Shown here piece after piece: positions 2 through 20,199 of a stretch of 24,000 nucleotides of DNA. Numbering within the stretch: position 1 is the first letter of the stretch; each line of letters opens with the position of its first letter. The translations under genes were made by a program, and so were the position numbers. This DNA comes from a bacterium sp. HQB-39 (lineage in GTDB: Bacteria > Pseudomonadota > Gammaproteobacteria > Enterobacterales > Vibrionaceae), in the NCBI GenBank assembly GCA_043422575.1, contig JBHOHG010000010.1:105919-129918 (forward strand), given 5' to 3'. Under the pieces are notes generated by a model. It was given only the letters and a program-made list of their open reading frames with translations. It searched no databases and had not been told where the DNA came from.

Positions 2-1264
2 GATATGGATGCTTGGTACGTGTTGGACCCTGTGATTACGGTTCATCCTGACCAAGTGTTTTTTGAATGCTTTTCAGAAGATGAATCCAGCTACGGCAAA
101 TTAAGCTGCAACTACGACGCATTTGAAAAGATTAGCGATAAAGAGTATGGCACGACGAACATTGATTACTCTCAAGGGCTTTATGACGAGTTCCAGAAGA
201 TCCGAGATTATCGCCAGACCCAGCTTAAAGTGGATCCAGATGGTTTTAGTGTTCAGACGAGTGGTAGTGAAGCATTTGATGAGAAGAAAATCGACCTACC
301 TGAATCTTGGGTAAGAGGGTTTCTTCAGGTCAGTTCTGCCATGACCATGCCTATGGTCAAAATCACGTTACAACCTATGGATATTCATAATATCTGTACG
401 CACTTGAAGCAGAAAAAAGAGCGCGTAGGGCCTCGTTCAATGCGTTTTGAACTGACGCCAGATCAACCGATACGCATTGTGATGGAACCTTGGAATGATG
501 TGATTGTATGTCCACGATCGATCTATCGAGGAGAGAAGCAAAGAAGCATTCGAACTTGGGGACGTCGTCGTTTGTTAATACTTGAGCGATTATTGGCGGT
601 GACGGATAGCTTTGATGTCTGTTTACTCGGCGATGGGATGCCGTCGTTCTACTTAGCGAATATGGGCAATCTAACATTTACCCTAGGTTTATCAGGTTGG
701 AGCGCAAATGACTGGTCGGCGGCAGGGCAATTTGATTTACTTGCCCCGCGAGAGCCCGTCGATGAAGTCACCAGTCAACAAATTTATGTCGCACTACAGT
801 CTACTCAACAAGAGAGTGCACACAGCTTATCCATCCGATTGGGGCTTGAAGTCAGTGTAGTAAAGTCCGCGTTGGCGCAATACAGCCAGTTGGGACAAGT
901 GCTTTATGACATTGAACTCGATGTGTATCGCATCCGTCATCTCTACAAGGAGCCGATAGAATTAGACCAGATTCGTTTTGCGAACGAACGAGAGGAAAAA
1001 GCACAGCGTTTTGTCGATGCCAATTTAGTCACCATTACCAAACTTGAGCATTCTGATTTAGGTGCCGAGGTTTGTGGCTCGGTATTGGATGATGGAAAAG
1101 AATACATAGTGAAACTGAAATTGGACAGCGACCAACGTTTAATTGACGCTGAATGCCAATGTCATTTCTGGTTTACTAACAAGCTGAGACAGGGTCCATG
1201 TGAGCATATTTTGGCGTTGAGAATTTTCGCGCAAAGTAAAATGCAGCAGGAGGTGACAGCGTGA
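2..1264 (+). CDS. Winged-helix + SWIM zinc-finger protein, a candidate retron accessory gene. The reading frame is open to the window edge, so the true start may lie upstream.
   Basis: Long ORF with a first in-window ATG at 5. SWIM CxC...CxH signature CQCHFWFTNKLRQGPCEH at nt 1154-1207. It is preceded by a wHTH-like segment (SLSIRLGLEVSVVKSALAQYSQLGQVLYDIELDVYRIRHL). It lies directly upstream of the RT on the same strand. Confidence 0.8.
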   Translation, partial: DMDAWYVLDPVITVHPDQVFFECFSEDESSYGKLSCNYDAFEKISDKEYGTTNIDYSQGLYDEFQKIRDYRQTQLKVDPDGFSVQTSGSEAFDEKKIDLPESWVRGFLQVSSAMTMPMVKITLQPMDIHNICTHLKQKKERVGPRSMRFELTPDQPIRIVMEPWNDVIVCPRSIYRGEKQRSIRTWGRRRLLILERLLAVTDSFDVCLLGDGMPSFYLANMGNLTFTLGLSGWSANDWSAAGQFDLLAPREPVDEVTSQQIYVALQSTQQESAHSLSIRLGLEVSVVKSALAQYSQLGQVLYDIELDVYRIRHLYKEPIELDQIRFANEREEKAQRFVDANLVTITKLEHSDLGAEVCGSVLDDGKEYIVKLKLDSDQRLIDAECQCHFWFTNKLRQGPCEHILALRIFAQSKMQQEVTA

Positions 1265-1347
1265 TAGTTACCTGGCTCTCAAAAACATCATATGCAAGTG
1301 ATTTTGTACTTGCAGCACAGCCGTTTAACTTTAGAATGTTCGGTAAC

Positions 1348-1571
1348 AGTAGCGCGGCAGAAGAACCTTGCATCTCGAATGGTGGATCGCCATTCAGGTT
1401 TTATGACTGCCCACGCATCACTGATGCTATCTTTACTGAACCGTACGGTCACCTATGTCGCTATTGCGGTATGACTTCGATGAAGTCAATGAGCGACATA
1501 GGTAACGTACGGCATCGAGTTGATAACCTCAGTACCAAGAACTCTTCGAAGGAATATCTCGTCGCGCTACT
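1348..1571 (+). ncRNA. Candidate retron msr-msd non-coding RNA
   Basis: A 9-nt inverted repeat, AGTAGCGCG (1348-1356) and CGCGCTACT (1563-1571), brackets the region. A G follows immediately at 1357, in the position of a branching G. Two short hairpins lie at 1377-1395 and 1415-1427. A long nested hairpin at 1441-1512 has 7+12 bp arms plus an inner 7-bp hairpin at 1472-1488. The element sits about 100 nt upstream of the RT start, as in retrons. Boundaries are inferred. Confidence 0.45.
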
Positions 1572-1669
1572 TTCCTTCCTTTCGCACAAGGTGACTGCGT
1601 GTCACAAACATCTTCAACTCACCCTTCGACGTCACGTCTTACGTCCAGCCTCATTTGAGGAGCATTGCT

Positions 1670-3538
1670 ATGTCTGATTCCATTACGTCTAACTCCAACA
1701 CATCTAACTCCAACACACAAACGACGCGAGAGAATGATGAATCTCAGCCGAAACTTACTCGTCAACAAATCTATGACCGTGTTCGCCAAAGCAGTAAAGA
1801 TGAATACATACTGCAAGAAATGGTCAGGCTCGGCTTTTGGGAGCATGATGAAGAAAAGCCAACTTTAGCGCAGGAGTTTGTGCAACGTCGGAGCGAACTC
1901 AACAGTAAGATTCGTGAACTGAGCAAACTTGATGAGATATATTCTGATCCGGATAAAGCGCTTGAAGCGATGCGCAAGGAACGTAAAAAAGCGGCGCTGA
2001 TTAAGCGAGAAGAGACCAAACAAGCACGTAATCAATCACGCTATCAAAGAGCACTGCAGTGGTTCGAAAAACAGAAGTATCAAATTACGTGGTTAGGCGA
2101 GCATGTATCACAAGGACTGGGGAAGCAAGAGTGCGATGAAACCCGCCTAGATAGACAGCAAATTCCAGTGTTTCATAAAGCGGAACACTTGGCACAAGCA
2201 ATGGGCATAAGTGTGCCAGAATTGCGATTCTTAGCTTTTCAAAAAGAAGTGTCGAAAGTCTCTCATTATCAAAAATTCACCATCCCAAAGAAGACGGGAG
2301 CGCCACGATCTATTTCGGCGCCTATGCCTCGTTTAAAACGAGCTCAGTACTGGATTTTAGAGAACATATTGAATGAAGTGACCATTCATGGTGCCGCTCA
2401 TGGCTTCGTGCCAAAGAGAAACATCGTCACGAATGCGGAGCTTCATGTAGGTAAAGAAGTTGTGATCAACATGGATCTTAAAGACTTCTTTCCGAGCATA
2501 AGCTATCGCCGAGTGAAAGGGGTTTTCCGTGGTTTTGGCTACAGCGAAGAAATTGCGACCATACTCGGATTGTTGACGACGGAACAAGACACGCAGAAGG
2601 TCGAGATGGACGGGGATACTTGGCATGTTGCCACAGGAGAGCGTCGATTACCTCAAGGAGCACCATCCAGCCCTGCGATAACGAATGTGTTATGTAATCG
2701 TCTTGATTCTAGATTACAAGGCATGGTGAACAGTCTCGGCTTTGAGTACACTCGCTATGCGGATGATCTTACTTTCTCAGGAAACGACCCTAAAAAGGTT
2801 CAAGCGCTGTTATGGCGAGTCAAGCAAATCGTCGCTGACGAAGGGTTTACTCTCCACCCTGATAAAACCAGAGTGATGCGTCGACATCAGAAGCAGGAGG
2901 TGACTGGCGTCGTCGTTAATGACAAGATCTCGATTGATCGTAAAACCTTGAAGCGATTCCGAGCGACGTTACATCAGATTGAGAAAGATGGTCCAGAAGG
3001 AAAGGTGTGGGGAGCTGGTGAACTGTTCCAGTCTCTGCAGGGGTATGCTCAGTTTGTTTCAATGGTAAATACCGTTAAAGGTGTGCCATTAGAGAAAAAG
3101 GTAATCGATCTCAAGCGTAAATATGGCATATCGACCAAGCCGGGGCGCATCACCGAGTTAAATAAGCGATTATTCCGAGAAAAGGCGGCGCAAGGGGAGG
3201 CGCCAAGAGGTGACTGGTGGCAACCTGAAGAGAAATCAGCTCCCGAGCTAGAGTTGACCGCGCAGCAAAAAGCGGAACAGAAAAAGCGTGAAAAACACAA
3301 TGCTCGATACAGCGAAACACCGACCAGCGATGAATCAAGCAGTGAAGTGCAGACAGAAACGGTGGTCGACGCCGAATCACAAGATTCAACCAAAGAGGAT
3401 AAAGAGGAAGTCGGACCGTTTATATATATTCTGGCTATCGTGTTCTCTCCGTTAATTCTCTTTCTTTTCCTTTTATACCGTTTTCCTACAGCGACGATCT
3501 TAATGCTGATTCTAGGATTTATCATTTTTGGCGATTAA
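1670..3538 (+). CDS. Retron-type reverse transcriptase with an approximately 190-aa N-terminal charged extension and a C-terminal acidic linker plus two hydrophobic helices
   Basis: ATG at 1670 with GAGGAG 8 nt upstream; the ORF-track TTG start at 1655 is less likely. Motifs: NAELH (NAxxH) at 2432-2446, MDLKDFFPSI, RYADDLTFS (YADD at 2756-2767), and QEVTGVVVN (VTG at 2900-2908). The C-terminus FIYILAIVFSPLILFLFLLYRFPTATILMLILGFIIFGD is strongly hydrophobic. Confidence 0.9.
   Translation: MSDSITSNSNTSNSNTQTTRENDESQPKLTRQQIYDRVRQSSKDEYILQEMVRLGFWEHDEEKPTLAQEFVQRRSELNSKIRELSKLDEIYSDPDKALEAMRKERKKAALIKREETKQARNQSRYQRALQWFEKQKYQITWLGEHVSQGLGKQECDETRLDRQQIPVFHKAEHLAQAMGISVPELRFLAFQKEVSKVSHYQKFTIPKKTGAPRSISAPMPRLKRAQYWILENILNEVTIHGAAHGFVPKRNIVTNAELHVGKEVVINMDLKDFFPSISYRRVKGVFRGFGYSEEIATILGLLTTEQDTQKVEMDGDTWHVATGERRLPQGAPSSPAITNVLCNRLDSRLQGMVNSLGFEYTRYADDLTFSGNDPKKVQALLWRVKQIVADEGFTLHPDKTRVMRRHQKQEVTGVVVNDKISIDRKTLKRFRATLHQIEKDGPEGKVWGAGELFQSLQGYAQFVSMVNTVKGVPLEKKVIDLKRKYGISTKPGRITELNKRLFREKAAQGEAPRGDWWQPEEKSAPELELTAQQKAEQKKREKHNARYSETPTSDESSSEVQTETVVDAESQDSTKEDKEEVGPFIYILAIVFSPLILFLFLLYRFPTATILMLILGFIIFGD
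1688..1717 (+). repeat. Perfect 15-nt tandem duplication TCTAACTCCAACACA x2, encoding SNSNT x2 in the RT N-terminus
   Basis: Read directly: 1688-1702 is identical to 1703-1717. Confidence 0.95.
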
Positions 3539-3585
3539 CTGAACATCACTGATGGCAGGTGTGAATCATTCTGTGCGTTGTATTC

Positions 3586-3613
3586 TACCCAGTGTTTGCG
3601 ACGATACTGGGTA
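3586..3613 (+). other. 8-bp hairpin (TACCCAGT ... ACTGGGTA) between the RT and GNAT genes; a member of the ACCCA(A)G/C(T)TGGGT hairpin family
   Basis: Perfect inverted repeat 3586-3593 / 3606-3613 with a 12-nt loop. There is no T-run, so it is not a classic intrinsic terminator. Confidence 0.5.
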
Positions 3614-3628
3614 TCATTGAGGGGTTTT

Positions 3629-4153
3629 ATGTTGTACGTGTTTTCAGAACCAGTTCGAATGGAAATCGAGAGCTTGCCTATATCATTACTCATGGAAGCG
3701 GAGCCCTGTGAGTTATCTATCCAGCAATACCCACCGCATGCTGAAGCTATCGCAGTGTTTGCTCGTGAAGAAGGGTTGATCAATCAACGTGTGGCAGGCT
3801 GTTTAGTATGGGCAGAAGTTCAAACTGAACGTGATGTAAAGGTAGTGGAAATCTTAAATTTATCTGTTTTTGAGCACTATCAAGAACAAGGAATTGGCTC
3901 CAAATTGCTTGAGAATGTAATTCGTGTTCTCTCTAAGCAGGGAGTTGATGAAATCGTTCTTTCAACGGGAACGTTTGGATACCAACTTGCCTTTTATCAA
4001 AGATTTGGGTTTCGGGTTGTTGAAGTACAGAAGGATCACTTTATTGAGAAATACCCCCAAGCAATTTTCGAACATGGAATACGTCATAAAGATGCTCTAA
4101 AGCTTTCTCTCACGCTTGACTTGGAATATACCCAAGTAACCTCGAGATGCTAG
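3629..4153 (+). CDS. GNAT family N-acetyltransferase
   Basis: Acetyl-CoA binding motif QEQGIGSKLLENV and a C-terminal YQRFGFR motif. ATG at 3629 follows GAGGGG; the ORF-track start at 3578 lacks a Shine-Dalgarno sequence. The last 8 codons and the stop codon lie inside repeat copy 1. Confidence 0.8.
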   Translation: MLYVFSEPVRMEIESLPISLLMEAEPCELSIQQYPPHAEAIAVFAREEGLINQRVAGCLVWAEVQTERDVKVVEILNLSVFEHYQEQGIGSKLLENVIRVLSKQGVDEIVLSTGTFGYQLAFYQRFGFRVVEVQKDHFIEKYPQAIFEHGIRHKDALKLSLTLDLEYTQVTSRC

Positions 4154-5866: not shown

Positions 5867-7471
5867 TTATTTTACTTGCGGAACATCACTCCATTTCAAT
5901 CCAAATTTGGTCAGGTACTTTTGCAAGCGGCTGGTGTCATTGTGAGCGGACTTTTGTGTCCGAGAATACTGGAATAATTCGCGACCTGTTGCGGCCATGG
6001 AGTCATGTTGACTGGCGACATTCAGTACATAATTGAGCTGGTGGGCATCAAAATTATCTAACTGATCTAGCTGTTCATCATCGAAAACCGACTTTAAATG
6101 CTCCATTGAGTGTGTGCTTGGCTCATCACACTGCCAAGAAGCCTTTAAGCGAAGGATCTCTTGGTCTACATCCTGTAAAGTAATCCTAGAAGAGTCGGCA
6201 AGGGTACACATACGAGTGATCGCTGAACTTAAATCGCGAAAGTTTCCTGTCCAGAGTGCTGATGGGGATGAGGAAAAAGTAAGGAAACGCTGTTTTGCTT
6301 CCTTATTAAATTGAATTCGTCGTTCAGTTTTCTGTGTGTATTGATCAAGTTCAAAATCGATGTTGGCCGGAATATCTTCTTTTCGTTCTTTTAACGCTGG
6401 TAATTTATATGTCCATAAATTAATTCTGGCTAACAGATCGCCTCTGAAGTTACCCAATTGAACTTCGCGTTTTAAATCTCGGTTGGTTCCTGCGATCAAC
6501 TGAAAGTCACTGCTGACAGCGGTATCGCTTCCGACTGGATGGAAGGATTTACTTTCAATTGCGTGCAGTAACATCGCTTGTTCTTCTAGTCCTAGTTCAC
6601 CAATCTCATCTAAAAACAGTACACCCTGATTGGCAGTCAGTAAAAAGCCATCTCTCGACTTCAATGCCCCTGTGAACGCGCCTTTGGTGTGCCCGAAGAG
6701 CGCAGCCATTGCATTTTCCCCTTTCAAAGTGGCGCAGTTGACAGACACCAAGCTTCCCGAGACCATGCTGCGCTTTTTTTTGAGCTGGTAGATCCGAGTT
6801 GCTAGCTGGCTTTTACCGGCACCGGTTGGGCCGGTCAGTAGCATAGGGTCACGAGAGCGGATCGCGACCTTTTCTAATTGGGTGATCAGTTGGTTGAAAT
6901 GACGATTTTTGGTCGCGATGCCATTTTTAAGAAAAGTGGTGCCCTCTGAGTGTTCCTTGTCAAATCGTGTTGCAAGCTGATCATATTTTGATAAATCGAG
7001 ATCGATGATCTGAACGGTGCCGATTGAGCGGTTTTCTTGATGGCTATCGGGCGATGTTTGAATTAACCGCCCTGGAAAATGGCGACTTTCAGTCAATAGA
7101 TAAGCGCAGATCTGTACCACGTGTGTCCCGGTTGTAATGTGAAACAAGTAATCATTCTGCTCGGTATCGAAATGTTGCTGCTTACACCAATCAAATAATT
7201 TGGCATACACCTCCTCAAAATCCCATGGATTGTCAAAGTCAATGGGGTGACGAACCACTTCGGTTTCAGGGGATATTGTTTCGATATCGACAGCAATGTT
7301 ATGGGCGAGTCGCCCCGATGGATGACCATGGAGCAAATGCATGGTATCAATTTGCAAGTCTTCTTGACTGCACAAGCCAACATTAGGTCGCCATCTATCC
7401 CAACGCTTTTTCCCTCGCCCGACACGATCCAGTTGTGTTCCCAGTAAACTCACGACAATCGTTGATTTCAT
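5867..7471 (-). CDS. rtcR: RtcR, a sigma54-dependent transcriptional activator with an N-terminal CARF-type sensor domain
   Basis: The N-terminus MKSTIVVSLLGTQLDRVGRGKKRWDRWRPNVGLC resembles E. coli RtcR. AAA+ Walker A LLTGPTGAGKSQLA and the GAFTGA motif (TKGAFTGAL) are present. The gene is divergent from rtcBA. Confidence 0.93.
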   Translation of the reverse strand: MKSTIVVSLLGTQLDRVGRGKKRWDRWRPNVGLCSQEDLQIDTMHLLHGHPSGRLAHNIAVDIETISPETEVVRHPIDFDNPWDFEEVYAKLFDWCKQQHFDTEQNDYLFHITTGTHVVQICAYLLTESRHFPGRLIQTSPDSHQENRSIGTVQIIDLDLSKYDQLATRFDKEHSEGTTFLKNGIATKNRHFNQLITQLEKVAIRSRDPMLLTGPTGAGKSQLATRIYQLKKKRSMVSGSLVSVNCATLKGENAMAALFGHTKGAFTGALKSRDGFLLTANQGVLFLDEIGELGLEEQAMLLHAIESKSFHPVGSDTAVSSDFQLIAGTNRDLKREVQLGNFRGDLLARINLWTYKLPALKERKEDIPANIDFELDQYTQKTERRIQFNKEAKQRFLTFSSSPSALWTGNFRDLSSAITRMCTLADSSRITLQDVDQEILRLKASWQCDEPSTHSMEHLKSVFDDEQLDQLDNFDAHQLNYVLNVASQHDSMAATGRELFQYSRTQKSAHNDTSRLQKYLTKFGLKWSDVPQVK

Positions 7472-7774: not shown

Positions 7775-7845
7775 GGCACCGAAACTCAATGGTAGAGCAC
7801 TGAAAATCAACTTCAGTTGTTGTGGGTTCGAATCCCACCAAAAAA
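7775..7845 (+). ncRNA. tRNA-like element in the rtcBA leader (D-arm, anticodon-like arm and T-arm, but no acceptor stem); possibly a Y-RNA/YrlA-like module
   Basis: D-arm-like CTCAATGGTAGAG at 7785-7797. Hairpin CTGAA-AATCAAC-TTCAG at 7800-7816. Canonical T-arm GTGGG-TTCGAAT-CCCAC at 7822-7838. The flanking 7-mers GGCACCG and CAAAAAA cannot pair. A second T-arm-like hairpin, AGGG-TGCAAAT-CCCT, lies at 7755-7769. Confidence 0.5.
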
Positions 7846-8033: not shown

Positions 8034-9257
8034 ATGTGTCAGAAATTTAATTTAATTGAAAACCCAGGCAACACACCGATCAAAGCATGGACGCAAGGTG
8101 TGCCATTTGAAAACAAAGCACAAGAGCAGGTGAAAAACATCGCCAAGATGCCATTTATTCACTCACACGTCGCTATTATGCCCGATGTTCATTTAGGTAA
8201 AGGAGCCACAATCGGCAGTGTGATCCCATCGGTCAATGCGGTGATCCCAGCCGCTGTCGGGGTAGATATAGGTTGTGGTATGGTCGCGACCAAAACCTCA
8301 TTAAGTGCGAGTCAGTTGCCAGATAATTTATCCGCCATCCGTTCCGCGTTTGAAGCCGCTATTCCACATGGGCGTAGCAGCTCTAGAGCCAAAGTCGATC
8401 GTGGTTCATGGGGAAACATCCCTGAATTGGTCGCGGGTGAATGGCAAAAGCTAGAACAGCGTTTCAAGCGTATTTGCGAGAAACACCCCGCGATTGCCAA
8501 GTCAAATCATGTTGTCCATTTAGGTACTATGGGTACGGGTAATCACTTCTTGGAGCTCTGTCTGGATGAGAATGATGCTGTCTGGATCATGCTGCATTCA
8601 GGGAGTCGTGGTGTCGGTAACCGGATTGGGACCTATTTTATTTCGTTGGCAAGAAAAGAGATGGAGCGTCATCAACGTCAGTTGCCAGACCTTGATCTTG
8701 CCTACCTTGAAGAGGGCAGCGACTACTTTGACGACTACGTAGAGGCAGTAGAGTGGGCACAAGATTTTGCCGCGAAAAACCGTGAAATCATGATGTTTAA
8801 TGCGATTAAGGCTCTGCGTGAACAAATGCCTGTAGAGTTCACAACCATGGATGTCGCTGTGAACTGCCATCACAACTATATCTCCCGAGAAAAGCATTTT
8901 GGAAAAGAGTGCTACGTGACTCGAAAAGGTGCCGTGAGAGCTGAGAAAGGGGAACTCGGGATCATTCCGGGTAGCATGGGAGCGCGTTCCTTTATTGTTC
9001 GAGGCTTAGGCAATCCTGAAAGCTTCAACAGTTGCAGTCACGGTGCTGGTCGAGTTATGTCACGAACACAGGCGAAGAAAGTGTTTAACGTGAAAGATCA
9101 AGAAGCAGCGACGCAAGGGGTTGAGTGTCGAAAAGACCAAGGGGTTATTGACGAGATCCCCCATGCCTATAAAGACATTGAAAAAGTCATGGAGGCTCAA
9201 AGTGATTTGGTCGAAGTGGTGCACACCCTAAAGCAAGTGGTCTGTGTGAAAGGCTAG
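8034..9257 (+). CDS. rtcB: RNA-splicing ligase RtcB (3'-phosphate/5'-hydroxyl RNA ligase)
   Basis: RtcB hallmarks are present: IMPDVHLGKG, VGVDIGCGM, GTGNHFLE, HSGSRGVGN, NCHHNY, GSMG and SCSHGAGR. A good RBS precedes the start. Confidence 0.95.
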   Translation: MCQKFNLIENPGNTPIKAWTQGVPFENKAQEQVKNIAKMPFIHSHVAIMPDVHLGKGATIGSVIPSVNAVIPAAVGVDIGCGMVATKTSLSASQLPDNLSAIRSAFEAAIPHGRSSSRAKVDRGSWGNIPELVAGEWQKLEQRFKRICEKHPAIAKSNHVVHLGTMGTGNHFLELCLDENDAVWIMLHSGSRGVGNRIGTYFISLARKEMERHQRQLPDLDLAYLEEGSDYFDDYVEAVEWAQDFAAKNREIMMFNAIKALREQMPVEFTTMDVAVNCHHNYISREKHFGKECYVTRKGAVRAEKGELGIIPGSMGARSFIVRGLGNPESFNSCSHGAGRVMSRTQAKKVFNVKDQEAATQGVECRKDQGVIDEIPHAYKDIEKVMEAQSDLVEVVHTLKQVVCVKG

Positions 9258-9317: not shown

Positions 9318-10487
9318 ATGATCACCATAGATGGCTCATTGGGAGAAGGTGGAGGGCAGATCCTTAGGACGTCGTTGACTCTGGCGATGCTGACCCAACA
9401 GTCGATAGAAATCGTTAATATTCGAGCTGGGCGTAAAAAGCCCGGTTTACTTCGCCAACATTTAACTTGTGTATTAGCAGCTCAGGCGATTTGCCAAGCC
9501 GAAGTACAAGGCGCGGAACTGGGTTCGCAGCATGTGGTGTTTCGTCCTCAAGCGGTAAGAGCGGGAGAATATCGTTTTGCCATCTCGGGCGCTGGCAGTA
9601 CCGCTTTGGTTTGCCAAACCGTGTTTCCGGCACTGGCGGTGGCTGAGGGGGAGTCGATGGTGACCTTCATCGGGGGGACACATAATGGTTTATCACCCTC
9701 TGTGGATTTCTTGCAAAAATCGTATTTCCCGATTTGGCATGAAATGGGTGTCGTGACGGCAATGACGATGCAAAAAATTGGCTTTAATCCGGCTGGAGGA
9801 GGGGAGTGGCAACTTAGGATCACACCAGCACAGACGCTAAAGGCTTTCAATTATACAGAGCGAAAGGCTTTTGATTACACAGAACAAAAGGCTTTCGAAC
9901 TCACGGGGAAAAAGGAGTGTGATCTCGGAGCTTTACAGCTCAAAACAGGCCCTACTCTATGGCAAGACAAAGTTCAAATTAATGTATTAATCAGCGGTAT
10001 TGAGCACAAAGTGGCGCAAAGAGAGGTCGCTGAGGCGATACGATATTGTCGCCTTGATGCGCACACCATTAATAACAACGTGGTAATTAAAGGGGTCAAC
10101 AGTGCGTGCGCAGGCAATAGCTTCCAAATGAGTTACTTACTCGACCACAACCATGCCGTATTCGAAATGGTCGGTGAAGTACGTGTATCTGCTGAAAAAG
10201 TGGCGCGAAGAGCGGCTGGGCGATTTAACAAGTGGGTAAACAGCGGAGCGGCAGTGGAAGAGTACTTGGCGGATCAACTCTTGATTCCGATGTGGATGGC
10301 AGGAGAAGGGCGTTTTTCCACCACCCAACCTAGCCTTCATTGCCAAACGAATATGCAAGTGATTAAAGCCATTACTGGCTGCGAGTTTTATGTCACGCCA
10401 ATCGGAGTGGATAAGCAACAGTGGTTGGTAAGAATTAAGGGAGAGAAGGGTGAAGCAAGCAGTCATAAACCCAAGAGTGATACCTGA
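9318..10487 (+). CDS. rtcA: RNA 3'-terminal phosphate cyclase RtcA, with an internal repeat-containing insertion
   Basis: The N-terminus IDGSLGEGGGQILRTSLTLAML is typical of RtcA. The protein is 389 aa, compared with about 338 aa for E. coli RtcA from memory. It lies downstream of rtcB. Confidence 0.93.
   Translation: MITIDGSLGEGGGQILRTSLTLAMLTQQSIEIVNIRAGRKKPGLLRQHLTCVLAAQAICQAEVQGAELGSQHVVFRPQAVRAGEYRFAISGAGSTALVCQTVFPALAVAEGESMVTFIGGTHNGLSPSVDFLQKSYFPIWHEMGVVTAMTMQKIGFNPAGGGEWQLRITPAQTLKAFNYTERKAFDYTEQKAFELTGKKECDLGALQLKTGPTLWQDKVQINVLISGIEHKVAQREVAEAIRYCRLDAHTINNNVVIKGVNSACAGNSFQMSYLLDHNHAVFEMVGEVRVSAEKVARRAAGRFNKWVNSGAAVEEYLADQLLIPMWMAGEGRFSTTQPSLHCQTNMQVIKAITGCEFYVTPIGVDKQQWLVRIKGEKGEASSHKPKSDT
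9840..9911 (+). repeat. In-frame 24-nt tandem repeat x3 inside rtcA (KAFNYTER / KAFDYTEQ / KAFELTGK)
   Basis: Units at 9840-9863, 9864-9887 and 9888-9911, read directly. The units are imperfect copies. Confidence 0.9.
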
Positions 10488-11283
10488 TTCAGTCAGATCA
10501 GAAATTTTACGACGTATTTCTGCCGCTGAACAAGAACATAATGTGAAGGTACTGTTTGCGATCGAATCCGGCAGCCGAGCGTGGGGATTTGAAAGCGCTA
10601 ACAGTGATTTCGATGTGCGTTTCGTCTATATCCATGAAAAAGACTGGTATCTCACTATTGATGTCGAAGAAAAACGTGATGTGATTGAATATCCGATCAC
10701 AGATGAAATCGACATCAATGGCTGGGAATTACGTAAGGCATTAAAATTATTTCGAAAATCGAACCCAGCCATCCTTGAGTGGATTCAATCACCGATTGTG
10801 TATCGCGATGATGGCTTGACGATGACAAGCTTGAGAGACCTCATTAGCTTAGTGGCTGATCCGCGAAAGGCGGGGTATCATTATTTTCATATGGCCCGCA
10901 ACAATTTTCGAGAATACCTGAAAAAAGAACAGGTACCACTGAAGAAATATTTTTATGTGTTGCGCCCTTTATTAGCCATTCGGTGGTTAGAAGCCCATCA
11001 ATCGCAGCCTCCGATTGAATTCGACACCTTATGCGAACTCATCGTTGATCAAGTTGATTTAAAAGATGCCATCGATGAGCTGTTGGTACGTAAGCGTGCA
11101 GCAACAGAAAAAGAAATGATATACAGCGTGCCTGTGATCAATGACTTTATTGCTTCTGAGTTAGCGCGTAACGGCGACAGTGATGATTTGCAGTTCATAA
11201 AATTACTCATGAAACGCGCACAACACGATCACACGCCGCGACTCAATCACGTCTTTCAACAATGCTTGGAAAACGAAATTTGA
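10450..11283 (+). CDS. Pol-beta-superfamily nucleotidyltransferase (RlaP-like, RNA-ligase-associated)
   Basis: Motif ESGSRAWGFESANSDFDVRFVY, i.e. the GS...D.D minimal NTase signature. GTG start at 10450 follows GGAGAGAAGG and overlaps the rtcA 3' end by 38 nt. From memory this matches the PF10127-type family linked to RtcB. Confidence 0.85.
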   Translation: MKQAVINPRVIPDSVRSEILRRISAAEQEHNVKVLFAIESGSRAWGFESANSDFDVRFVYIHEKDWYLTIDVEEKRDVIEYPITDEIDINGWELRKALKLFRKSNPAILEWIQSPIVYRDDGLTMTSLRDLISLVADPRKAGYHYFHMARNNFREYLKKEQVPLKKYFYVLRPLLAIRWLEAHQSQPPIEFDTLCELIVDQVDLKDAIDELLVRKRAATEKEMIYSVPVINDFIASELARNGDSDDLQFIKLLMKRAQHDHTPRLNHVFQQCLENEI

Positions 11284-20108: not shown

Positions 20109-20199
20109 TGGCGGAGAGATAGGGATTTGAACCCTAGATACGCTATTAACGTATGCCGGTTTTCAAGACCGGTGCTTTCAACCACTCAGCCATCTCTCC
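20109..20199 (-). tRNA. tRNA-Ser (anticodon UGA), with an encoded CCA end
   Basis: The reverse complement folds as a class II cloverleaf. Acceptor GGAGAGA/TCTCTCC. Anticodon arm CCGGT-CUUGAAA-ACCGG. Long variable arm ATACG...CGTAT. T-arm TAGGG-TTCAAAT-CCCTA. 3' end GCCA. Confidence 0.95.

What the first reader, a model, noticed from the sequence alone, without database searches (positions are those of the whole stretch)
1265..1669. Predicted msr-msd architecture in the SWIM-RT intergenic region
Seen directly:
- A 9-nt inverted repeat, AGTAGCGCG (1348-1356) and CGCGCTACT (1563-1571), with a G immediately 3' of the left arm at 1357. This is the geometry of retron a2/a1 repeats and the 2'-OH priming G.
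- Between the arms lie two short hairpins (1377-1395 and 1415-1427), which look msr-like.
- A long, almost continuous hairpin follows (CCGTACG-GTC-ACCTATGTCGCT at 1441-1462 pairing with AGCGACATAGGT-AA-CGTACGG at 1492-1512). It encloses an inner hairpin, TGACTTC-GAT-GAAGTCA (1472-1488), and looks msd-like.
- Extra hairpins lie outside the repeat at 1294-1313 and 1591-1605.

Caveat: a 9-mer inverted repeat between two 150-nt regions is only weakly significant. My rough expectation is near 0.1 by chance, so the exact boundaries are inference.
Basis: partly seen in the sequence, partly recalled or inferred. Interest (0 to 1): 0.7.

Follow-up and report, generated by a model that had tools for sequence, protein, structure and literature searches.

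The report
Retron template RNA between SWIM and RT

Summary
The overall reading, a retron msr-msd RNA, is right. The flanking genes match the PADLOC models SWIM_XIII (E 1e-188) and RT_XIII (E 2e-193). The RT carries the retron motifs NAxxH, VTG and YADD.

A covariance model finds it just upstream of the RT in about 45 loci from many phyla. Covariation is strong: 90% of cells are paired against 33-42% in slid controls, and 62 of 73 pairs show compensatory changes.

Corrections:
- G1357 is an ordinary covarying stem position. The only invariant G at the inner end of the stem is G1370 (context CUUGC), which faces invariant G1548.
- The hairpin at 1415-1427 is not conserved.
- The msd stem is much longer than described (1420-1533).
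- The outer hairpins are not conserved.

This is a new member of a known kind.

One extra result: the 138-aa ORF stays open in 16 related loci. It has a Shine-Dalgarno-like motif, its start overlaps the SWIM stop, and its stop overlaps the RT start. It shows no protein-level conservation. It may act as a translational relay.

The parts
2..1264 (+). 3' part (last 419-420 codons) of the type XIII retron SWIM-domain gene. The gene runs off the left end of the window; relatives are about 547 aa.
   Evidence: PADLOC SWIM_XIII E 1.3e-188, profile positions 98-504 of 509. The motif CxCx12CxH appears as CQC-HFWFTNKLRQGP-CEH. Full-length neighbours in relatives are 540-568 aa and are preceded by a WGR/HEAT gene.
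1261..1677 (+). ORF-X, a 138-codon open frame that covers the whole ncRNA. Its GTG start overlaps the SWIM stop (GTGA). Its stop at 1675-1677 overlaps the RT start (ATGTCTGA). AGGAGG at 1248-1253 lies 7 nt upstream of the start.
   Evidence: The same frame, defined relative to G1370, is stop-free across the SWIM-RT gap in 16 related loci, while the other two frames carry 4-12 stops each. A Shine-Dalgarno-like motif is conserved. There is no codon-position bias and the flanks cannot be aligned as protein.
1310..1337 (+). Candidate sigma-70-type promoter for the ncRNA: TTGCAG-N16-TAGAAT. The predicted transcript start is about 1344-1348.
   Evidence: Conserved among the four Vibrio loci. A -10-like hexamer (TAnAAT, TATACT or TACACT) lies 7-14 nt before the left arm in most gammaproteobacterial loci. 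It did not pass the strict consensus scan because the -35 matches only 3 of 6.
1348..1369 (+). 5' strand (a2) of the terminal stem: the perfect 9-nt arm 1348-1356, then G1357, C1358 and A1359-A1361 paired, then an internal loop at 1362-1365, then CCUU at 1366-1369.
   Evidence: Helix 1 has 14 of 14 pairs with compensatory changes and is 93% paired. Helix 2 is 96% paired. In L033 a perfect 20-bp arm runs right up to CUUU|GC.
1370..1370 (+). Invariant unpaired G (context CUUGC) at the inner end of the a2/a1 stem. This is the predicted 2'-OH priming (branching) guanosine.
   Evidence: G in 41 of 41 CM-aligned copies and in all 47 copies once the six added loci are included. The other G candidates (1352, 1357, 1360) are covarying stem positions. 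The rule for where the priming G sits comes from Simon et al. 2019, PMC6868368.
1377..1395 (+). msr hairpin: 8 bp with a 3-nt loop.
   Evidence: 99% paired across 41 sequences with compensatory exchanges. It was predicted independently from a MAFFT alignment by RNAalifold.
1396..1419 (+). Conserved single-stranded msr linker (G1405; CAYGCnUC at 1412-1419). The RT stop site and the RNA-DNA hybrid probably lie here.
   Evidence: Column conservation: G1405 in 40 of 41, G1415 in 39, C1416 in 40, C1419 in 41. No candidate hairpin here is supported. The function is inferred.
1420..1533 (+). Long msd stem-loop. The base is ACUGA / UCAGU. The apical hairpin is 1472-1488.
   Evidence: Helices 4-9 are 85-100% paired apart from one 2-bp helix (55%) below the apical hairpin, and the distal 14-bp helix has 14 of 14 pairs with compensatory changes. 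Two compensatory double changes occur even among the Vibrio loci. RNAalifold on the MAFFT alignment agrees.
1548..1548 (+). Invariant G opposite G1370. This is the predicted first template nucleotide of the msd.
   Evidence: G in 40 of 41. It lies exactly 178 nt from G1370 in 29 of 47 copies across phyla. The 'two opposing G residues' feature of retron ncRNAs is described in Mestre 2020.
1549..1571 (+). 3' strand (a1) of the terminal stem: AAGG at 1549-1552, then a loop, then the 9-nt arm at 1563-1571.
1670..3538 (+). Retron reverse transcriptase gene (622 aa), with GAGGAG at 1656-1661 upstream. The protein has an N-terminal extension of about 160 aa and a C-terminal hydrophobic tail.
   Evidence: PADLOC RT_XIII E 1.9e-193. 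Pfam RVT_1. Motifs NAELH, VTG and YADD. The best solved relative is the retron Ec86 RT, E 2.6e-44.

Best explanation
Positions 1348-1571 (+ strand) are the msr-msd non-coding RNA gene of a type XIII retron, the family of Mx162, Mx65, Sa163 and Ne144.

Proposed mechanism:
1. The RNA is transcribed from a weak promoter just upstream, and probably also as part of the operon mRNA.
2. Its ends pair into a composite a2/a1 stem, 1348-1369 with 1549-1571.
3. The downstream RT binds the msr part, which consists of hairpin 1377-1395 and the conserved linker 1396-1419.
4. The RT uses the 2'-OH of the invariant G1370 as primer.
5. It copies the RNA leftwards from G1548 through the long stem-loop 1533-1420 and stops in or near the conserved linker.
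6. The product is a branched msDNA of roughly 130-145 nt that folds into a long hairpin.
7. By analogy with other retrons, the msDNA-RT complex works with the SWIM-domain protein and an upstream WGR/HEAT protein that lies outside this window.

Shown here: homology of both proteins to type XIII models, the RNA structure by covariation, the invariant opposing Gs, and the transcribed strand.

Inferred: the branch point, the msDNA ends, the promoter, and any biological role.
For: Protein context:
- SWIM_XIII and RT_XIII match at E 1e-188 and 2e-193.
- The RT carries NAELH, VTG and YADD, and its best solved relatives are all retron RTs.
- The SWIM protein carries CxCx12CxH, as described for cluster 114_1 in Mestre 2020.

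Conserved block:
- It is delimited exactly by the arms. Identity is 97% inside the block and the flanks diverge with indels.
- nhmmer and the covariance model R1 find it on the + strand directly upstream of the RT in about 45 loci from Gammaproteobacteria, Bacteroidota, Cyanobacteria, Verrucomicrobiota, Desulfobacterota and others.

Covariation:
- 90.3% of cells are paired against 33-42% for slid partners.
- The covariation score is 0.698 against 0.180 in shuffles, and 0 of 500 shuffles reach it.
- 62 of 73 pairs show double-sided changes.
- A model-free script finds a different 9-20 bp terminal repeat in nearly every locus.
- RNAalifold on a MAFFT alignment recovers the msr hairpin and the msd stem, with 38 of 43 pairs compensatory.

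Other points:
- G-U pairs (U1383-G1389 in 37 of 41 sequences) fit only the + strand.
- G1370 and G1548 are invariant and exactly 178 nt apart in most copies.
Against: - No msDNA, branch point or transcript ends were measured.
- Rfam has no matching family, at the gathering threshold or at E up to 10.
- Model R1 did not hit the myxobacterial (Polyangia) or planctomycete type XIII loci, and I could not retrieve the experimentally characterised Mx162 or Ne144 loci. The link to a validated msDNA producer therefore rests on protein homology.
- The G context is UUGC. The literature reports TAGC, CAGC, GAGC, CAGA or ACGC for characterised retrons.
- The promoter fails a strict consensus scan.
- A stop-free ORF overlaps the whole RNA.
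Confidence: 0.9

Rival explanations
1. The region is also, or instead, a translated gene. ORF-X (1261-1677) is read by ribosomes that reinitiate at the SWIM stop (GTGA or ATGA) and terminate on the RT start codon, coupling SWIM and RT translation across the ncRNA. The act of translation, rather than the peptide, would be what is selected.
For: - In 16 related loci one + frame has 0 stops (1 in L083) across the 280-450 nt gap. Summed over the 15 loci with no stop in that frame, the other two frames carry 193 stops.
- In most of these loci it is the same frame relative to G1370.
- The probability that any frame is open in shuffles of the whole gap is 0.001-0.04 per locus of ordinary GC content. 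Shuffling only the unalignable flanks gives a combined probability of about 1e-11 if the loci are treated as independent.
- The start overlaps the SWIM stop as (A/G/T)TGA in most loci, and the stop overlaps or abuts the RT ATG in most.
- A GGAG-type motif lies 6-10 nt before the start in the ORF-bearing loci. It is absent in the ORF-less L013 and L023.
- A gene caller called the ORF in Enterovibrio.
Against: - There is no excess of third-codon-position variation inside the block: entropy is 0.94, 0.97 and 0.90 by codon position.
- The N- and C-terminal flanks do not align as protein, and their composition looks non-coding.
- There are no Pfam or PADLOC hits.
- The same nucleotide core is conserved in many loci where every frame is closed, including Bacteroidota, Cyanobacteria and the tandem arrays.
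- The RT has its own GAGGAG Shine-Dalgarno motif.
- The GC-rich loci are uninformative, and the loci are not fully independent.
- As a replacement for the RNA explanation, this reading is excluded by the covariation.
Confidence: 0.4
2. One reading: G1357 is the branching G directly after a 9-bp a2 arm, there are two msr hairpins (1377-1395 and 1415-1427), and the msd is limited to 1441-1512.
For: The geometry is present in this one sequence. The left arm contains TAGC here and CAGC in the Vibrio relatives, which is the commonest context of priming Gs.
Against: - Positions 1352, 1357 and 1360 all covary as ordinary base pairs and are not conserved as G.
- In L086, L005 and L007 the equivalent of G1352 is A.
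- Hairpin 1415-1427 is 59% paired, with C-C at 1416/1426 in 22 of 41 sequences.
- The stem base 1420-1424 / 1529-1533 covaries.
Confidence: 0.05
3. It is a structured template RNA of a non-retron defence RT (DRT/UG type), or a cis-regulatory leader of the RT gene, with no branched msDNA.
For: No experimental product is known for this subfamily. Rfam has no model for it.
Against: - The RT scores far best against the retron type XIII model, and every solved relative is a retron RT.
- The retron-specific NAxxH and VTG motifs are present.
- The RNA has the full retron layout: terminal repeats, opposing Gs, an msr hairpin and a long msd stem.
Confidence: 0.04

Closest known systems
Type XIII retrons (Mestre et al. 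2020, RT clade 10): Retron-Mxa1 (Mx162), Mxa2 (Mx65), Sau1 (Sa163), Nex2 (Ne144)
   Same: - The RT clade and its extended N-terminus.
[quoted passage not shown]
- An ncRNA directly upstream of the RT with terminal inverted repeats, a short msr hairpin and a long msd stem.
- The closest named protein hit is annotated 'RT-Ne144' in Vibrio nigripulchritudo.
   Different: - The predicted priming G sits in UUGC, not CAGC or GAGC.
- My model of this ncRNA does not detect the Polyangia loci. Mestre 2020 lists several ncRNA structure families within this clade.
- The RT here has a C-terminal hydrophobic tail.
- A stop-free ORF spans the ncRNA in this gammaproteobacteria-centred subclade.
Retron-Eco1 (Ec86), the best-studied retron and the closest solved RT structure
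   Same: General mechanism and layout: an a1/a2 stem, a priming G at the inner end of the stem followed by C, an opposing G on the 3' strand, msr hairpin(s), and an msd stem-loop. The RTs are homologous at E 2.6e-44.
   Different: - Ec86 belongs to a different type, with a nucleoside deoxyribosyltransferase-like effector rather than SWIM plus WGR/HEAT.
- Its RT is shorter (320 aa) and has no N- or C-terminal extensions.
- Its msd is 86 nt, against a predicted 130-145 nt here.
- There is no sequence similarity between the ncRNAs.
Defence-associated RTs with their own ncRNA templates (DRT2, DRT9 and other UG classes)
   Same: An RT gene preceded by a conserved structured ncRNA that serves as template.
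   Different: Those RTs lie outside the retron clade, and their RNAs lack the a1/a2 stem and the branching G. Here every retron hallmark that can be tested in sequence is met.

Membership tests
Retron (general) | RT of the retron clade with the NAxxH motif, the VTG triplet and a YADD catalytic core | tested here: met
   NAELH, EVTGVVV and YADD are in the translation. The top 25 PADLOC hits shown are all retron RT models, and all 16 solved relatives are retron or retron-type RTs.
Retron (general) | An ncRNA gene next to the RT whose 5' and 3' ends are inverted repeats (a2/a1) that pair | tested here: met
   All 14 pairs of the terminal helix show compensatory changes across 41 homologs. A model-free search finds locus-specific 9-20 bp repeats.
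Retron (general) | A conserved priming guanosine at, or just after, the inner end of the a2 strand, with an opposing G on the a1 side | tested here: met
G1370 is invariant in 47 of 47 copies, and G1548 is invariant in all but one. Whether G1370 is truly the branch point cannot be tested here.
Retron (general) | One to three short msr hairpins and one long msd stem-loop | tested here: met
   One msr hairpin (1377-1395, 99% paired) and a 114-nt msd stem-loop (1420-1533), both with covariation. A second msr hairpin is not supported.
Retron (general) | Production of msDNA linked 2'-5' to the msr RNA | not testable with these tools
   This needs msDNA extraction, debranching and sequencing.
Type XIII retron (Mestre 2020 / PADLOC) | RT belongs to clade 10 (RT_XIII) and has an N-terminal extension | tested here: met
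   RT_XIII matches at E 1.9e-193 over residues 22-546. The next model scores 340 bits against 642. About 160 aa precede the RVT_1 domain.
Type XIII retron (Mestre 2020 / PADLOC) | [quoted passage not shown] | tested here: met
   SWIM_XIII matches at E 1.3e-188. The motif is CQC-x12-CEH. Pfam SWIM scores only 16.5 bits, below its cut-off.
Type XIII retron (Mestre 2020 / PADLOC) | An upstream WGR/HEAT-ARM repeat accessory gene (cluster 216), present in many but not all members | tested here: inconclusive
   The window starts inside the SWIM gene, so the position is not covered. All six relatives fetched have a large gene there (up to about 1040 aa), and five of the six carry faint or weak WGR or HEAT hits.
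Type XIII retron (Mestre 2020 / PADLOC) | An ncRNA homologous to that of an experimentally validated member (Mx162, Mx65, Sa163 or Ne144) | not tested
   I could not retrieve those loci. The second protein search returned only MAG and Minicystis relatives. R1 gave no hit in Polyangia loci.

The most novel reading that the evidence does not exclude
In a gammaproteobacteria-centred subclade of type XIII retrons, the msr-msd template lies inside a short translated 'relay' ORF. This ORF-X has a Shine-Dalgarno-like motif, a start that overlaps the SWIM stop, and a stop that overlaps the RT start. It is kept open by selection even though its peptide is not conserved.

Ribosomes crossing the template on the operon mRNA would couple SWIM and RT synthesis and would unfold the a1/a2 stem. 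Only transcripts from the internal promoter, or untranslated copies, could then be reverse-transcribed. That would link translation status to msDNA production.
Probability: 0.35. Interest if true: 0.6.

Novelty: new member of a known kind. Interest (0 to 1): 0.4.

Why it matters
Type XIII retrons include the first msDNA ever found (Mx162), yet I found no study of their biological role or of the SWIM effector in the searchable literature, and no solved structure of a type XIII RT or SWIM protein.

This locus gives a well-bounded ncRNA for a Vibrio-type member:
- the stem, the priming G and the first template base are defined;
- the G-to-G spacing is a fixed 178 nt;
- the distal msd stem is freely variable.

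That is what is needed to design mutants, to express the system, or to re-engineer the msd as a DNA donor.

The conserved open frame across the template is a cheap, testable lead on how the mRNA and template roles of a retron transcript are separated. The tandem ncRNA arrays in Bacteroidota relatives are a second lead.

Tried and rejected
- **Rfam.** The whole window at gathering thresholds, and 1200-1750 at E up to 10, gave no RNA family for the region.
- **PDB search with the SWIM protein.** No hit.
- **Anchoring the priming G on a characterised retron.** The first protein search listed only close relatives. A second search, using a Polyangia RT as query, gave MAG, Nannocystis sp. and Minicystis proteins but not M. 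xanthus or N. exedens. In the Nannocystis MAG the SWIM gene abuts the RT with no ncRNA between them, and model R1 found nothing there.
- **Literature.** The census and environmental-retron papers do not mention type XIII or SWIM. The supplements of Mestre 2020 are not held.
- **Promoter scan.** No site passed the 9-of-12 rule. I kept the promoter only as a candidate, on the basis of cross-locus conservation.
- **Frame test on the G1370-G1548 distance modulo 3.** This was uninformative, because the distance is 178 nt in ORF-bearing and ORF-less loci alike.
- **Alternative hairpins rejected by homolog counts.**
- **Minus-strand RNA.** Only the palindromic msd stem matches on the minus strand, and the conserved G-U pairs fit the + strand only.

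Full report
**Observation.** The inverted repeat AGTAGCGCG (1348-1356) / CGCGCTACT (1563-1571) is exact, and G1357 follows the left arm. The hairpins at 1377-1395, 1415-1427, 1441-1512 (with 1472-1488 inside) and 1293-1314 are all present. The 9-mer alone is weak evidence. The region folds better than shuffles on both strands (z = -4.4 and -4.0). In the minimum-energy fold of the + strand the 9-mer arms close the structure.

**Context.** The gene that ends at 1264 matches the PADLOC model SWIM_XIII (E 1.3e-188). The gene at 1670-3538 matches RT_XIII (E 1.9e-193), far ahead of any other RT model. The RT has RVT_1 and the retron hallmarks NAELH (NAxxH), VTG and YADD. Its solved relatives are all retron RTs, with Ec86 best at E 2.6e-44.

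The SWIM protein ends with CQC-x12-CEH. This is the CxCx12CxH motif that Mestre et al. 2020 describe for the cluster-114 protein of type XIII retrons, the clade that holds Mx162, Mx65, Sa163 and Ne144 (PMC7736814). Relatives fetched by protein identity show the full operon: WGR/HEAT gene, SWIM-type gene of about 547 aa, a gap, then the RT. The window starts inside the SWIM gene.

**The RNA.** I fetched 80 related loci by RT similarity. The three closest are Vibrio penaeicida (two loci) and V. nigripulchritudo, with RTs 62-70% identical.
The flanks on both sides diverge with indels.
- Within the block the few differences are compensatory. The arm is AGUAGCGCG / CGCGCUACU here and AGCAGCGCG / CGCGCUGCU in the others. 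The long stem has AUGUCGCU / AGCGACAU here and AUACCGCU / AGCGGUAU in the others.
- A profile of the four sequences finds the block by sequence alone, on the + strand just upstream of the RT, in about 35 further loci from several phyla.
- A covariance model (R1) finds full-length copies in 41 places among the first 80 loci and in all six added gammaproteobacterial and Variovorax loci.

On the 41-sequence alignment the structure holds up well:
- 90.3% of cells are paired, against 33-42% when the partners are slid by 1-3 columns.
- 62 of 73 pairs show changes on both sides.
- The covariation score is 0.698 against 0.180 in shuffles, and 0 of 500 shuffles reach it.

That alignment is fitted to the model, so I looked for model-free support. 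A simple script finds a different 9-20 bp terminal inverted repeat at the same place in nearly every locus. RNAalifold on a plain MAFFT alignment of 24 sequences recovers the msr hairpin and the msd stem, with 38 of 43 pairs compensatory. Conserved G-U pairs (U1383-G1389 in 37 of 41) fit only the + strand.

1. *The priming G.* G1357 pairs with U1562, and that pair covaries across homologs (GC 10, AU 8, UA 8, GU 4). The position is G in only 14 of 41 homologs.
   - The same is true of G1352, which lies in TAGC (CAGC in the relatives), the commonest context of priming Gs according to Simon et al. 2019 (PMC6868368).
   - It is also true of G1360, which lies in CAGA.
   - The terminal stem does not stop at the 9-mer. 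It continues through G1357-U1562, C1358-G1561 and 1359-1361 with 1557-1559, then an internal loop, then CCUU (1366-1369) with AAGG (1549-1552). That last helix is 96% paired and shows a CG/UA exchange at its outer pair (21 against 13).
   - Directly after it comes G1370, in CUUGC. It is G in all 47 copies examined. It faces G1548, which is G in all but one.
   - In Sulfidibacter (L033) a perfect 20-bp arm runs right up to CUUU|GC.
   - This fits two published descriptions: the rule that the a2 strand 'contains or ends immediately 5' to' the priming G, and the 'two opposing G residues' of retron ncRNAs.
   - I therefore assign the branch to G1370 and the first template base to G1548. This is an inference, with about 0.75 confidence.
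2. *The second msr hairpin.* The hairpin at 1415-1427 is only 59% paired in homologs. It competes with 1420-1424 / 1529-1533, which is 92% paired and covaries. The msr has one supported hairpin (1377-1395, 99% paired) followed by a conserved unpaired linker.
3. *The msd stem.* It spans 1420-1533.
4. *The outer hairpins.* Those at 1294-1313 and 1591-1605 lie in flanks that do not align even among the Vibrio loci.

The distance from G1370 to G1548 is exactly 178 nt in 29 of 47 copies across phyla, which points to a tightly fixed product length. If the RT stops in the conserved linker, as it does just beyond the stem base in Ec86 (from my own knowledge of that system), the msDNA would be about 130-145 nt.

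**Promoter.** TTGCAG-N16-TAGAAT (1310-1337) is conserved in the Vibrio loci. A -10-like hexamer lies 7-14 nt before the left arm in most gammaproteobacterial loci. It fails a strict consensus scan, so it stays a candidate.

**The ORF.** The result is mixed and is the most interesting part of this locus.
- In 16 related loci one + frame has no stop (one stop in L083) across the whole 280-450 nt SWIM-RT gap. In most of them it is the same frame relative to G1370. These loci are Vibrio, Photobacterium, Enterovibrio, Motilimonas, Citrobacter, Hahella, Variovorax, Pleionea, a Ketobacteraceae MAG, a Polaribacter-labelled MAG, Pelagimonas, a Verrucomicrobiota MAG, a Verrucomicrobiales MAG and Sulfidibacter.
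- The other two frames carry 4-12 stops each in the loci of ordinary GC content.
- Whole-gap shuffles leave any frame open with probability 0.001-0.04 per locus of ordinary GC content. Shuffling only the unalignable flanks gives about 1e-11 combined if the loci are treated as independent, which overstates the case somewhat.
- The start codon overlaps the SWIM stop: GTGA here, and ATGA or TTGA in most of the others. The stop overlaps or abuts the RT ATG: ATGTCTGA here, and ATGA or TAATG elsewhere.
- A GGAG-type motif lies 6-10 nt before the start in the ORF-bearing loci but not in the ORF-less L013 and L023. A gene caller annotated the ORF in Enterovibrio.

Against a real protein:
- Variability inside the block does not depend on codon position (entropy 0.94, 0.97 and 0.90).
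- The flanks do not align as protein.
- There is no family hit.
- The same nucleotide core is conserved in many loci where all frames are closed.

The RNA explanation therefore stands. The frame seems to be kept open for the sake of translation itself, most simply as a relay that couples SWIM and RT synthesis across the template. That is an inference, with roughly 0.4 confidence that the ORF is translated and that this matters.

**Comparison and novelty.** This is a type XIII retron ncRNA, and Mestre 2020 already modelled ncRNA consensus structures for that clade. It is a new member of a known kind. It differs from the characterised members in four ways:
- the UUGC context of the predicted priming G;
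- an ncRNA that my model does not find in Polyangia loci;
- a C-terminal hydrophobic tail on the RT;
- the relay ORF.

I could not retrieve Mx162 or Ne144 to anchor the branch point.

**Verdict.** The finding is ordinary as a class, with one unexplained conserved feature worth a small experiment.

Noticed in passing
L024 2054-2883; L026 2054-2883; L028 2063-2890; L029 74-1211: Bacteroidota and Chitinophagales type XIII loci carry tandem arrays of 3-4 complete msr-msd units between the SWIM gene and a single RT. The copies share the msr and the basal msd almost exactly. They differ on both strands of the distal ~45 nt of the msd stem, with pairing kept. Matching copies in different loci are 92-94% identical, so the arrays are old.
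   Followed up: partly
window 3410-3535 (RT residues ~581-622): After an acidic low-complexity linker the RT ends in a hydrophobic segment (FIYILAIVFSPLILFLFLLYRFPTATILMLILGFIIFG). Relatives from Vibrio, Photobacterium, Enterovibrio, Motilimonas, Hahella, Citrobacter and Variovorax have similar tails. This suggests a membrane-anchored retron RT in this subclade. No topology prediction was run.
   Followed up: partly
window 1370 to 1548, and the equivalent positions in 47 ncRNA copies: The spacing between the two invariant Gs is exactly 178 nt in 29 of 47 copies from different phyla, although the intervening stem sequence is free to vary. This implies strong selection on product or template length.
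   Followed up: partly
window 7781-7839 (+): A weak, partial tRNA-like Rfam match (30.5 bits against a gathering score of 29, model positions 7-64) lies between an RtcR gene (5867-7471, - strand) and RtcB (8034-9257). RtcA (9318-10487) and RlaP (10450-11283) follow. ARAGORN does not call it a tRNA. It may be a tRNA-like RNA of the RNA-repair operon.
   Followed up: no
window 3578-4153 (+): A GNAT acetyltransferase ORF lies directly downstream of the RT (Acetyltransf_7 E 2e-10). The relatives have unrelated genes at this position, though the Variovorax locus also has a faint acetyltransferase hit downstream. It is probably not part of the retron.
   Followed up: no
L035, L038, L041, L054, L065, L087: In some type XIII loci the SWIM gene abuts or overlaps the RT gene with no gap (for example the Polyangia and Nannocystis MAGs), and model R1 finds no ncRNA nearby. 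Their ncRNA must lie elsewhere or belong to another structural family.
   Followed up: partly
window 20109-20199 (-): A tRNA-Ser (anticodon TGA) gene. It is unrelated to the retron and about 16.6 kb downstream of the RT gene.
   Followed up: no
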